From the UHGV virus genome UHGV-1978634: a DNA stretch of 39,633 bases. One strand, given 5' to 3'. Within the stretch, counting starts at the first letter, position 1; each line of letters begins with the position of its first letter. The DNA is from a virus. The position numbers were made by a program, and so were the translations under genes. Under the pieces are notes generated by a model. The model was not told the DNA's origin and did no database searches. It was given only the letters and a program-made list of their open reading frames with translations. Positions 18,719-29,191 of this stretch are shown here, piece after piece.

Positions 18719-18967
18719 GGGTAAAAATCCGGTGGGTAAAATTATTTTATCCACTTTTTACCCGTCATGGAGTGCGGCTGTCAACGATCTGACGCGAACC
18801 ATGACGAACTGTAAATCTACGGAAGGCTTGATATTCAGGGGATTTTGCGGACTGGTACGGATGGGAGCGAACTGATAAATGGTGTCCCCTGCAGACATCT
18901 ACTTGAAGCGGCAGGGGATTGATTGGAATGGTGTTTTTTAGATGTGAAAAATATTTTACCCGCTATT
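18719..18967. other. Candidate attP between xis and int, with tRNA-Arg(argW)-like 3-prime-end core at 18880-18894
   Basis: tggtgtcccctgcag is the reverse complement of ctgcaggggacacca, which I recall as the 3-prime end of E. coli argW; flanked by inverted tcccctgc / gcagggga and by five TTTTACCC/GGGTAAAA motifs. Confidence 0.5.
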
Positions 18968-24102: not shown

Positions 24103-24486
24103 TTAGAAGGGAATTGAATCGTCGTATTCAGGATGATTTTGATGATTGCTACTTTGTTGCTGTTGGCTGTTTCCTGAAGTTGCAAATCCAATCTTTGCAT
24201 TCAGTAATTCAAGAGTGATTGATTGACCATTTTGCCCCTGATAAACATCAACCCTGATGTTTTCTCCGGTAATTTCCACAATGCCACCTTCAACAAGAAC
24301 GCTACGGTAGTAATCCGCTTGCGCTCCCGGCTTGGCAAATACAACGGCGCTGTAGTTTGTCCATTCTTTCTTTTTTGTCTGGCGATCGTAATACTGAACG
24401 CCAGCACGGATGTTGAATCCGATATTTTCCCCGGCCTGAAACTCTCTTGCGGGCTTGTTTAGTCTTACAGTAATCGAATGTGCCAT
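24103..24486 (-). CDS. Phage single-strand DNA-binding protein-like (OB fold, acidic DDSIPF tail)
   Basis: ORF 24103..24576, ATG at 24486; C-terminal ..EYDDSIPF resembles the SSB tail DDDIPF; adjacent to erf. Confidence 0.6.
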   Translation of the reverse strand: MAHSITVRLNKPAREFQAGENIGFNIRAGVQYYDRQTKKKEWTNYSAVVFAKPGAQADYYRSVLVEGGIVEITGENIRVDVYQGQNGQSITLELLNAKIGFATSGNSQQQQSSNHQNHPEYDDSIPF

Positions 24487-25091: not shown

Positions 25092-25180
25092 ATGATTGTT
25101 CTCAGAATGGACATGGCCCAAGGAAATAACGCTGATTTAATACTTCAGTCTTTGCCGCATTTAAAAATACGCGAACACCT

Positions 25181-25351
25181 TCACGATCTCCCTTCTGGCG
25201 ATACATTAACGCCTGCTGCGTGTACATGCGCCTCTGTAACTTGCTCTCCTTCACTGTGGTTGCAAGTGACATGAATATCTCCTTCGTTACCGATTAATTC
25301 TTTCATCTGACGAATGAATTCTTCGTCTGACCAGTTATCTGTAAAACTCAT
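25181..25351 (-). CDS. Hypothetical small protein (56 aa)
   Basis: ATG at 25351 overlaps the stop of the upstream reading frame (ATGA). Confidence 0.35.
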   Translation of the reverse strand: MSFTDNWSDEEFIRQMKELIGNEGDIHVTCNHSEGEQVTEAHVHAAGVNVSPEGRS

Positions 25352-25517
25352 GGACGGCCTTGTTGTTTCAAAATATCCCAAAGTTTTTCGAGCAAACTTT
25401 TCATTCTTGGTTGTTTAAAGTCTGCTCCGGTTAAATATTTTTTCGTGAATGCTGTACCGATAAAATCGGGTTGAAAGGGCGAACCGATGCCGCCCCTGCA
25501 ATAGCGAACTGTTGCAT
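25348..25517 (-). CDS. Small pL-operon gene, possibly frameshifted (weakly cIII-like N-terminus MQQFAIAG)
   Basis: Strong AGGAG RBS plus ATG at 25517 opens a frame that stops after 28 codons; the frame offset by one carries on to a coupled stop at 25348. Confidence 0.3.
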
Positions 25518-25796
25518 AGGATGCTCCTTCTGTTTGATTGCATAACGAAAACGCCTCAAGTGAAGCGTTATTGGTATGCATATAAAAAGGCCCTCACACT
25601 GGAGGGCAAAGAAGATTTCCAACAATCAGAACAAGTCGGCTCCTGTTTAGTTACGAGCGACATTGCTCCGGTATTCACTCGTTGGAATGAATACACAGTG
25701 CAGTGTTTATTCTGTTGTTTATGCCAAAAATAAAGGCCGACTATGCGGCCTGAAATTACTTAACCAATGATGCTGCATTATTCAATTAGGAATAAC

Positions 25797-26180
25797 TTAG
25801 GTGCAAGCCAAATCTTCAACCATTTCGAAATTGAAGGCAATAATTAAAACGCCAATAATTGAGCCAAATATAGGAGCAAATACAGTGCATATATCGTAAT
25901 AAAACGAAGATATAAAATATCTATCGTTTGGACATCCATCTAAAGACGTCCATCTCTCGCCATTATTTCTTGCCGTTCTTGCAAAACTAGGAAGTTTCAT
26001 TGCTGCAATTAAAAGCAACAACCCAGCCACTTGGAAAAGTGCGCTATGGACAAAACTCCATGTTAGCAACTGACGAACAACATCAGGAATCTGTGCCTGG
26101 CTAAATGAAACAGCCGCGTCTATTCCATTACTGGCTTTTTGCAGAAGTTCTACGAGAATCTTGTTTGCTTGTTCTTCCAT
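25797..26180 (-). CDS. Membrane protein in pL operon (candidate superinfection-exclusion-type protein)
   Basis: 127 aa with hydrophobic segments; AT-rich. Confidence 0.55.
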   Translation of the reverse strand: MEEQANKILVELLQKASNGIDAAVSFSQAQIPDVVRQLLTWSFVHSALFQVAGLLLLIAAMKLPSFARTARNNGERWTSLDGCPNDRYFISSFYYDICTVFAPIFGSIIGVLIIAFNFEMVEDLACT

Positions 26181-28897: not shown

Positions 28898-29191
28898 ATG
28901 GTTCGTGCAAACAAACGCAACGAGGCTCTACGAATCGAGAGTGCGTTGCTTAACAAAATCGCAATGCTTGGAACTGAGAAGACAGCGGAAGCTGTGGGAG
29001 TTGATAAGTCGCAGATCAGCAGGTGGAAGAGGGACTGGATTCCAAAGTTCTCAATGCTGCTTGCTGTTCTTGAATGGGGCGTCGTTGACGACGATATGGC
29101 TCGATTGGCACGACAAGTTGCTTCGATTCTCACCAATAAAAAACGCCCGGCGGCAACCGAGCGTTCTGAACAAATCCAGATGGAATTCTGA
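28898..29191 (+). CDS. cII: CII transcriptional activator
   Basis: ORF 28811..29191; from ATG 28898 the product [51 protein letters not shown].. is near-identical to lambda CII as I recall it. Confidence 0.9.

What the first reader, a model, noticed from the sequence alone, without database searches (positions are those of the whole stretch)
25348..25581. Possible third homopolymer frameshift in a small pL-operon gene
A strong AGGAG RBS and ATG at 25517 open a frame (MQQFAIAG..) that stops after 28 codons, while the neighbouring frame continues to a stop coupled to the next gene. One extra base in the C-run 25493-25496 or the A/T-run near 25442-25447 would fuse them into a ~56-aa protein. The N-terminus is loosely reminiscent of lambda CIII.
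Basis: inference. Interest (0 to 1): 0.4.

Follow-up and report, generated by a model that had tools for sequence, protein, structure and literature searches.

The report
Frameshifted cIII gene, probably sequencing error
A small phage gene that helps decide between killing the host and lying dormant (a CIII-type protease inhibitor) looks split in two here because one T is missing. A prophage that matches this window at every aligned base, apart from six one-base gaps, has the gene intact, so the break is almost certainly an error in this sequence record and not biology.

Summary
On the minus strand, AGGAG (25528..25524) and ATG 25517 open MQQFAIAG..., which stops after 28 codons (TAA 25433..25431). 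The neighbouring frame runs on to TGA 25350..25348, which overlaps the ATG of the next gene.

The cause is one missing T in a T-run (25433-25435: T3 here, T4 in every relative). Restoring it gives a 56-aa protein identical to HK542 gp32 and SPN9CC_0014. This protein is a CIII-family member (PHROG 550; profile-profile match to lambda/P22/HK022 CIII). It sits behind the same leader as lambda cIII, in a phage that carries lambda-type cII.

The T3 allele occurs nowhere else: 0 of 36 phage records, 352 E. coli places, IMG/VR, GTDB genomes and JGI metagenomes, whereas T4 is in at least 120 IMG/VR contigs.

A prophage in assembly GCA_052515165.1 covers all 39,633 bases of the window with 0 substitutions and exactly six one-base indels. 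These indels also break the terminase large subunit, the coat protein and an Sf6 gp34-like gene. Six indels with no substitutions, two of them in essential virion genes, points to sequencing or assembly error. It does not fit a pseudogene or programmed recoding. Interest is low.

The parts
25431..25517 (-). N-terminal 28 codons plus premature TAA of the cIII-type gene as it stands in the window (MQQFAIAGAASVRPFNPILSVQHSRKNI*)
   Evidence: PHROG 550 profile positions 1-27, E 1.6e-11.
25433..25435 (-). The lesion: a T3 run where every relative has T4 (A3 versus A4 on the + strand). The missing base turns AAT ATT TTA ACC into AAT ATT TAA.
   Evidence: Alignment with HK542, mEpX1 and SPN9CC. 73 of 73 relatives have the extra base. 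The sister prophage has it. The T3 allele is absent from all collections.
25348..25430 (-). C-terminal half of the gene (LTGADFKQPRMKSLLEKLWDILKQQGRP*), now out of frame. It carries the predicted amphipathic helix. Its TGA 25350..25348 overlaps the next gene's ATG.
   Evidence: PHROG 550 profile positions 28-46. Hydrophobic moment and AF2 helix at residues 38-55 and 43-53.
25524..25528 (-). Shine-Dalgarno AGGAG, 6 nt upstream of ATG 25517
   Evidence: Conserved with lambda, HK022, Sf6 and P22 cIII (AAGGA core).
25438..25443 (-). A6 run. Together with T 25437 it forms an A_AAA_AAT heptamer in the zero frame. It is not the site of the lesion.
   Evidence: The heptamer is not conserved in divergent homologues.
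25550..25607 (-). Conserved cIII leader: a terminator-like hairpin at 25607..25590 with a T tail, and a hairpin at 25569..25550 just upstream of the RBS. The ATG of the mechanical 77-aa ORF (25581) sits between the two hairpins with no RBS.
   Evidence: Leader alignment with lambda and HK022. mEpX1 annotates a terminator here. In Sf6 this stretch is annotated as the lambda-like tL2A terminator and a 'boundary sequence'.
25670..25671 (-). A second private one-base deletion in the non-coding leader: ATAC-CGG here, ATACACGG in relatives
   Evidence: 50 of 50 and 73 of 73 relatives have the extra base. The sister prophage has it too.
25797..26180 (-). Upstream Sf6 gp34-like gene, 127 aa here and 140 aa in the sister prophage. 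It is shortened by a private +T at about 25823-25825. A further private +T lies at 25778-25779.
   Evidence: Sf6 and SPN9CC also lack both extra T's.
25181..25351 (-). Downstream 56-aa gene (PHROG 2123), whose start is coupled to the cIII stop through ATGA
   Evidence: Same arrangement in HK542.
28898..29191 (+). Lambda-type cII gene (97 aa), the presumed beneficiary of CIII
   Evidence: Pfam Phage_CII on the identical sister gene.
4152..4155 (+). G4 run where relatives have G5. It splits the coat protein gene into 3490..4173 and 4239..4760.
   Evidence: 0 versus 111 IMG/VR contigs. Sister prophage.
195..195 (+). Extra G (AGAGCCCC versus AGACCCC) that frameshifts the terminase large subunit
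   Evidence: 0 versus at least 120 IMG/VR contigs. Sister prophage.

Best explanation
The locus is a cIII-type gene of a P22-like/lambdoid mosaic phage. In nature it encodes a 56-aa protein, MQQFAIAGAASVRPFNPILSVQHSRKNILTGADFKQPRMKSLLEKLWDILKQQGRP. By homology and gene position (inferred, not shown), this protein acts like lambda CIII: a small FtsH inhibitor that protects CII and so favours lysogeny. It is translated from the conserved cIII leader in the pL operon, and its stop is coupled to the next gene's start.

In this record one T of a T4 run is missing (25433-25435). That creates a TAA after codon 28 and puts the helix-bearing C-terminal half out of frame.

The missing base is most likely an indel-type sequencing or assembly error, or some other corruption of the record. 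It is one of six single-base indels, with no substitutions at all, that separate this window from an otherwise identical prophage. Others among the six break genes that a viable phage cannot do without.
For: Shown:
1. Relatives carry an intact 171-nt ORF. HK542 gp32 and SPN9CC_0014 are identical to the repaired product. All 113 full-length copies among the fetched loci are in frame.
2. The T3 allele is unique. There was no exact match among 36 phage records and 352 E. coli places, and none in IMG/VR, GTDB genomes or JGI metagenomes. The T4 allele is in at least 120 IMG/VR contigs. The 77-aa and 64-aa ORF products are not on record.
3. The prophage in GCA_052515165.1 covers all 39,633 bases with 0 mismatches and six one-base gaps, at 195, 4151, 25435, 25670, 25779 and 25825. 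It has an intact 56-aa gene, a 470-aa TerL and a 423-aa coat protein.
4. The TerL and coat alleles of the window are also unique (0 versus at least 120, and 0 versus 111 IMG/VR contigs). The protein on both sides of each break is 97.5-100% identical to Sf6.
5. The lineage shows purifying selection and no decay. Private substitutions against other relatives are 39 synonymous to 26 non-synonymous, with no private nonsense codon in a real gene.
6. CIII kinship: PHROG 550 at E 1e-22, a family that also holds lambda, P22 and HK022 CIII; hhalign probability 94%, E 1e-7; the shared N-terminal motif MQ.FAIAG and the shared leader; NCBI names an 89%-identical member 'phage regulatory protein CIII'; lambda-type cII is present.

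Inferred: FtsH inhibition, and that the discrepancy is an error and not a mutation.
Against: No reads are available, so error versus real mutation is not proven.

Only four of the six indels are homopolymer-length changes. The ones at 195 and 25670 lie in short AG/GT repeats.

Four of the six cluster within 391 bp (P about 5e-5 for uniform placement). A simple uniform error model does not explain this.

Other frameshift alleles of this gene do exist in public assemblies (A5, A7 and G-run variants), so real inactivation of this gene is conceivable.

On function: Pfam Lambda_CIII and Pfam cIII do not match. A 10-residue insertion interrupts the region that is essential in lambda. The structure prediction is of low confidence (pLDDT 63).
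Confidence: 0.88

Rival explanations
1. The one-base deletion is a genuine mutation in a real DNA molecule. It would be a cIII-null allele (a clear-plaque-type mutant, or a decaying prophage copy) that yields a 28-aa peptide lacking the amphipathic helix and uncouples translation of the next gene.
For: cIII is dispensable for lytic growth (established lambda genetics). Other frameshifted alleles of this same gene are on record (P0040 = A5, P0041 = A7, P0013 and P0017 = G-run). The lesion is in a slippage-prone A6-T-A-T4 stretch.
Against: It comes with five more one-base indels and no substitution in 39.6 kb. With substitutions normally several-fold commoner than indels (general knowledge of E. 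coli mutation spectra), six indels and no substitutions is very unlikely. Two of the indels break TerL and coat, yet the window is in the excised, attP-joined gene order. There is no sign of decay elsewhere. The allele occurs in no other sequence.
Confidence: 0.08
2. Programmed recoding: ribosomes slip -1 on A_AAA_AAT (25443..25437), or RNA polymerase stutters on the A6 run. Either event fuses the two frames into a 56-aa protein (...SRKKYLTGADF...), by analogy with dnaX.
For: The heptamer is in the zero frame directly before the stop. An 11-bp hairpin (25427..25390, -13.5 kcal/mol, z -2.7) starts 9 nt downstream, with modest pairing support in six homologues. The -1 product would differ from the natural protein at only two residues.
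Against: The two-frame layout is absent from every relative, including the otherwise identical sister prophage. The heptamer is not conserved in divergent family members (CGCCAGAAC, CGCAAACAT, CCATCTCAC). AAT is not a favoured A-site codon for -1 slippage in E. coli (general knowledge). In the normal T4 allele a slip would only truncate the protein.
Confidence: 0.02
3. The 28-aa ORF and the 77-aa ORF (25348..25581) are two separate, genuine small genes.
For: Both are open reading frames with ATG starts. Gene callers have produced 77-aa products starting MHTNNASLEAF... in other frameshifted copies (P0004, P0017, P0040).
Against: The 77-aa start has no RBS and lies between two leader hairpins. 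Its first 58 residues match no family, and only its last 19 match the CIII profile. Its exact product is not on record. In intact relatives that frame is closed or differs.
Confidence: 0.01

Closest known systems
HK542 gp32 (YP_007151767), SPN9CC_0014 (YP_006383853) and mEpX1 gp36: 56-aa proteins labelled 'CIII anti-termination' or 'putative cIII'
   Same: The protein is identical once the missing T is restored. The leader is the same, the position between the pL terminators and the recombination genes is the same, and the ATGA coupling to the next gene is the same.
   Different: The window lacks one T, so the ORF stops at codon 28. None of these proteins has been tested experimentally, as far as the searched literature shows.
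Bacteriophage lambda CIII (54 aa; Pfam PF02061), with P22 C3 and Sf6 gp32
   Same: The N-terminal motif M-Q-x-A-I-A-G. The C-terminal ...L-x-D-I-L-x-Q-x-G-x-P. The same PHROG (550). The same leader sequence, RBS context and operon position. A partner lambda-type CII is present.
   Different: Pairwise identity is only 28%, and there is no Pfam PF02061 hit. A conserved 10-residue insertion (NILTGADFKQ) interrupts the stretch that aligns with lambda residues 14-37, the region reported as essential and sufficient (PMC1838920). The amphipathic segment is shorter and weaker (hydrophobic moment 0.60 versus 0.83). FtsH inhibition has not been tested.
HK022-type CIII (44 aa; Pfam PF08134), the second class recognised by Kobiler et al. 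2007 (PMC1838920)
   Same: The same leader, almost base for base, and the same position. It is also in PHROG 550.
   Different: There is no PF08134 hit and the C-terminal half is different. The type in the window is therefore a third sequence class, not covered by the two classes named in that paper.
dnaX-type programmed -1 frameshift (A_AAA_AAG plus a downstream hairpin)
   Same: An A-rich heptamer with a hairpin 9 nt downstream.
   Different: The two-frame layout and the heptamer are not conserved in relatives. There is no upstream SD-like stimulator. The resemblance is superficial.

Membership tests
CIII family in the broad sense (PHROG 550) | The sequence matches the family profile over its full length | tested here: met
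   The repaired 56-aa protein scores E 1e-22 over residues 1-56. The two halves match in two different frames of the window. Lambda, P22 and HK022 CIII hit the same PHROG. hhalign against lambda/P22/Sf6/HK022 gives probability 94%, E 1e-7.
Lambda_CIII (Pfam PF02061) | Score above the Pfam gathering threshold | tested here: not met
   No hit even at E<=10 for the repaired protein. Lambda CIII and P22 C3 score 105 and 93 bits.
HK022-type cIII (Pfam PF08134) | Score above the Pfam gathering threshold | tested here: not met
   No hit. HK022 CIII scores 105 bits.
CIII family in the broad sense | A protein of about 44-56 aa with the conserved N-terminal residues (M-x-x-A-I-A-G) | tested here: met
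   MQQFAIAG. A5, I6 and G8 are at least 90% conserved in 21 homologues. The same motif is in lambda, P22 and Sf6. Conserved N-terminal residues are noted in PMC1838920. As it stands in the window, the ORF is only 28 aa.
CIII family in the broad sense | Position in the pL operon downstream of N, ral and terminators and upstream of kil or recombination genes, behind the cIII leader | tested here: met
   Gene order in the window compared with HK542, mEpX1, SPN9CC, P22 and Sf6. The leader aligns with the lambda and HK022 cIII leaders.
CIII family in the broad sense | A central amphipathic alpha-helix (lambda residues 14-37) that is necessary and sufficient for activity | tested here: inconclusive
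   The aligned region is split by a 10-residue insertion. AF2 predicts helices at 17-26, 31-34 and 43-53 at mean pLDDT 63. The best 18-residue hydrophobic moment is 0.60 at residues 38-55, reached by 4.4% of shuffles, against 0.83 for lambda. The whole of this segment lies downstream of the frameshift.
CIII family in the broad sense | Inhibits the FtsH protease and stabilises CII | not testable with these tools
   Context only: a lambda-type cII gene is present at 28898..29191.
Programmed -1 ribosomal frameshift | A slippery X_XXY_YYZ heptamer in the zero frame at the frame junction | tested here: met
   A_AAA_AAT at 25443..25437, one codon before the stop.
Programmed -1 ribosomal frameshift | The two-frame gene layout and the slippery site are conserved among homologues | tested here: not met
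   All 113 full-length copies and the otherwise identical sister prophage are in one frame. The heptamer is absent from the Enterobacter, Atlantibacter and Buttiauxella homologues.
Programmed -1 ribosomal frameshift | A stimulatory structure 5-9 nt downstream | tested here: inconclusive
   An 11-bp hairpin lies 9 nt downstream, -13.5 kcal/mol, z -2.7. 82% of cells are paired in six homologues, against 30-56% for slid controls; 8 of 500 shuffles reach that value. The structure was derived from one of the six sequences.

The most novel reading that the evidence does not exclude
Setting the frameshift aside, the intact gene would represent a third, experimentally untested sequence class of CIII-like proteins, alongside the lambda and HK022 classes. 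In this class a strongly conserved 10-residue insertion (NILTGADFKQ; T30, A32 and F34 invariant) splits the helix that is essential in lambda. The RNA that encodes it forms a hairpin. Such a protein might bind FtsH differently, or be regulated differently, from lambda CIII. A still more exotic reading is that the T3 allele is real and is partly rescued by -1 slippage on A_AAA_AAT. I put that reading at about 2%.
Probability: 0.3. Interest if true: 0.3.

Novelty: not a real feature. Interest (0 to 1): 0.07.

Why it matters
It matters mainly as quality control. This record carries at least six one-base indel discrepancies, and they break cIII, the terminase large subunit, the coat protein and an Sf6 gp34-like gene. 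Any annotation or 'pseudogene' call made from it would be wrong. The genes should be annotated from the corrected sequence.

A minor biological point also comes out. The intact gene belongs to a widespread class of CIII homologues in Escherichia, Salmonella, Enterobacter, Atlantibacter and Buttiauxella. No curated Pfam or NCBIfam model recognises this class, and nobody appears to have tested it.

Tried and rejected
- Pfam and NCBIfam scans of the repaired protein, the 28-aa piece and the 77-aa ORF gave no meaningful hits.
- An Rfam scan of 25200-25900 at E<=1 found nothing, including no lambda cIII thermosensor-type family.
- Exact look-ups of the window's 77-aa, 64-aa and 227-aa (truncated coat) products were not on record, so the source record of the window could not be traced.
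- No near-identical phage record exists in the phage collection (best 95-98% over at most half of each query). No near-identical prophage exists among complete E. coli genomes. The sister prophage was found only through exact-protein look-ups.
- Phage HF4s looked at first as if it supported many homopolymer differences. Those are peculiarities of the HF4s record itself and are not shared by other relatives.
- Programmed frameshifting was considered because of the A_AAA_AAT heptamer and a downstream hairpin. It was rejected on comparative grounds.
- The AlphaFold model was of too low confidence (pLDDT 63) to justify fold searches.
- A literature search found no study of this CIII class.

Full report
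**1. What is in the sequence.** The pL-type early-left operon of this window runs on the minus strand. It holds an N-like gene, lambda-identical ral, an Sf6 gp34-like gene, terminator-like hairpins, the small gene in question, two overlapping 56-aa ORFs, erf and an ssb-like gene. AGGAG at 25528..25524, a 6-nt spacer and ATG 25517 open MQQFAIAGAASVRPFNPILSVQHSRKNI, which ends at TAA 25433..25431. A second frame continues as ...LTGADFKQPRMKSLLEKLWDILKQQGRP to TGA 25350..25348, which overlaps the ATG of the next gene (ATGA). The mechanical 77-aa ORF that holds the second half starts at an ATG (25581) with no RBS, lying between two leader hairpins.

**2. The split is a frameshift within one gene.** PHROG 550 ('CIII') matches the 28-aa piece at profile positions 1-27. 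It matches only the last 19 residues of the 77-aa ORF, at positions 28-46. HK542, mEpX1 and SPN9CC carry a single 171-nt ORF here. Their DNA differs from the window by one extra T: ATATTTTAACC against ATATTTAACC. The lesion is therefore in the T-run 25433-25435, beside the A6 run 25438-25443. Restoring the T gives a 56-aa protein identical to HK542 gp32 and SPN9CC_0014.

**3. How common the broken allele is.** A 61-nt query across the site found no exact match in 36 phage records or 352 places in 336 E. coli genomes; the listed matches each span 62 nt. An exact T3 pattern has no match in IMG/VR, in one genome per GTDB species or in JGI metagenomes. Among all loci fetched, 113 full-length copies (22 distinct DNA sequences) are all in frame. 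The products of the window's 77-aa and 64-aa ORFs are not on record among 153 billion gene positions.

**4. The decisive comparison.** Exact-protein look-ups with the window's portal, Erf and tailspike proteins led to a prophage in NCBI assembly GCA_052515165.1, contig DBKBKR010000001.1. Three loci from it cover every one of the 39,633 bases of the window. There are 0 mismatches and exactly six one-base gaps:
- 195: +G, in TerL.
- 4151-4155: G5 to G4, in the coat gene.
- 25433-25435: the cIII lesion.
- 25670/25671: in the leader.
- 25778-25779: +T.
- 25823-25825: +T, which shortens the gp34-like gene from 140 to 127 aa.

The sister prophage encodes the intact 56-aa protein, a 470-aa TerL and a 423-aa coat protein. 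In the window, TerL and coat are each split between two frames, with 97.5-100% protein identity to Sf6 on both sides of each break. The window's alleles at those two sites are also absent from IMG/VR, where the normal alleles occur in at least 120 and in 111 contigs.

The window has the excised gene order. The two sister alignments overlap at a 17-bp attP core, 18878..18894. The window's ends lie inside TerL, with 158 bp missing between them.

**5. Error or mutation.** Six indels with no substitutions in 39.6 kb is not what mutation accumulation produces, because substitutions normally outnumber indels several-fold (general knowledge of E. coli mutation spectra, not tested here). A genome without TerL and coat cannot make virions. 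The lineage shows no decay: against other relatives its private substitutions are 39 synonymous to 26 non-synonymous, and none creates a stop in a real gene. I conclude that the frameshift is an indel-type error, or other corruption, of this record, with about 0.88 confidence.

Three points count against this. No reads are available. Two of the six indels are not homopolymer changes. Four of the six fall within 391 bp around the cIII leader (P about 5e-5 if placement were uniform), which remains unexplained. Sporadic frameshift alleles of this gene (A5, A7 and G-run variants) do occur in public assemblies, mostly Logan. A real null allele therefore cannot be excluded; I give it about 0.08.

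**6. What the gene is and how it probably works.**
- The repaired protein belongs to PHROG 550 together with lambda CIII, P22 C3 and HK022 CIII.
- A profile of 21 homologues aligns with a lambda/P22/Sf6/HK022 profile over the full length (probability 94%, E 1e-7). The N-terminal MQxFAIAG and the C-terminal L.DIL.Q.G.P are shared. There is a 10-residue insertion, NILTGADFKQ.
- The leader, including the hairpin before the RBS, is conserved with lambda and HK022 cIII.
- The phage carries lambda-type cII.
- By inference, the protein acts as lambda CIII does: as a competitive inhibitor and substrate of FtsH that stabilises CII (PMC1838920).

Membership is only partial. Pfam PF02061, Pfam PF08134 and NCBIfam do not recognise the protein, and pairwise identity to lambda CIII is 28%. 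The insertion interrupts the region that is essential in lambda. The predicted amphipathic helix (residues about 38-55) is shorter and weaker than lambda's. The protein is best described as a third sequence class of CIII homologues, beyond the two classes named by Kobiler et al. 2007. It is conserved at 56-59 aa across Escherichia, Salmonella, Enterobacter, Atlantibacter and Buttiauxella. Because the helix lies wholly downstream of the lesion, the 28-aa product would be expected to be inactive if it existed.

**7. Recoding.** The stop is preceded by A_AAA_AAT, and an 11-bp hairpin starts 9 nt downstream. A -1 slip would give a 56-aa protein that differs from the natural one at two residues. 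However, the natural gene is in one frame everywhere, and the heptamer is lost in divergent homologues. Programmed frameshifting is therefore rejected, at about 0.02. The hairpin itself has modest comparative support in six sequences and is noted as a side observation.

**8. Verdict.** The feature is almost certainly not biological. Novelty: not a real feature. Interest: low.

Noticed in passing
window 195; 4152-4155; 25670/25671; 25778-25779; 25823-25825: Five further one-base indels against an otherwise identical prophage (GCA_052515165.1), with 0 substitutions in 39,633 b. They frameshift the terminase large subunit and the coat protein and shorten an Sf6 gp34-like gene from 140 to 127 aa. 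One lies in the non-coding cIII leader.
   Followed up: yes
window 25435-25825: Four of the six indels cluster within 391 bp (P about 5e-5 under uniform placement). No Dam or Dcm motif occurs at the sites. The cause is unknown. It may be a local low-quality stretch, or the lambdoid 'boundary sequence' that is repeated among prophages.
   Followed up: partly
window 1 and 39633; 18878-18894: Both ends of the window lie inside the terminase large subunit gene, with 158 bp (about 53 codons) missing between them. The gene order is that of the excised, circular phage. The attP core is the 17-bp overlap of the two prophage-end alignments.
   Followed up: partly
window 25390-25427 (minus strand): An 11-bp RNA hairpin (GAGCAGACUUU / AAAGUUUGCUC, -13.5 kcal/mol, z -2.7) lies inside the most conserved part of the cIII-type coding sequence (GADF...KSLL). 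Six divergent homologues keep 82% of the pairs, with three pairs changed on both sides. This is weak evidence from few sequences.
   Followed up: partly
proteins P0040, P0041, P0013, P0017, P0043: Other frameshifted versions of the same gene are on record, mostly in Logan assemblies: A5 and A7 variants of the A6 run, G-run variants, and one double compensating shift. Gene callers turn them into spurious 64-77-aa proteins that start MHTNNASLEAF... or MQSNRRSIL...
   Followed up: partly
locus L008 (Escherichia phage HF4s, MT833387.1): The HF4s record has several homopolymer-length differences that no other relative shares (for example A5 versus A6 at window 472 and 2739, and T5 versus T6 at 24371, 27655 and 32264). 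It annotates a split scaffold protein, which suggests indel errors in that public record too.
   Followed up: partly
window 25102-25272 and 25181-25351 (minus strand): Two 56-aa ORFs overlap by about 90 nt in different frames. Each has its own strong PHROG match (1723 and 2123, both labelled 'recombinase'). The same arrangement is seen in Sf6 gp29/gp30 and HK022.
   Followed up: no
window 25518-25610; L004 (lambda), L006 (HK022): The roughly 90-nt leader upstream of the start codon is nearly identical in lambda, HK022 and this phage, although the three cIII coding sequences belong to different sequence classes. The mosaic junction sits at the start codon.
   Followed up: partly
annotations of HK542, SPN9CC, P22, lambda; PHROG 550: The widely propagated product name 'CIII anti-termination' is a misnomer. 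CIII is described as an FtsH inhibitor that stabilises CII (PMC1838920), not as an antiterminator.
   Followed up: no
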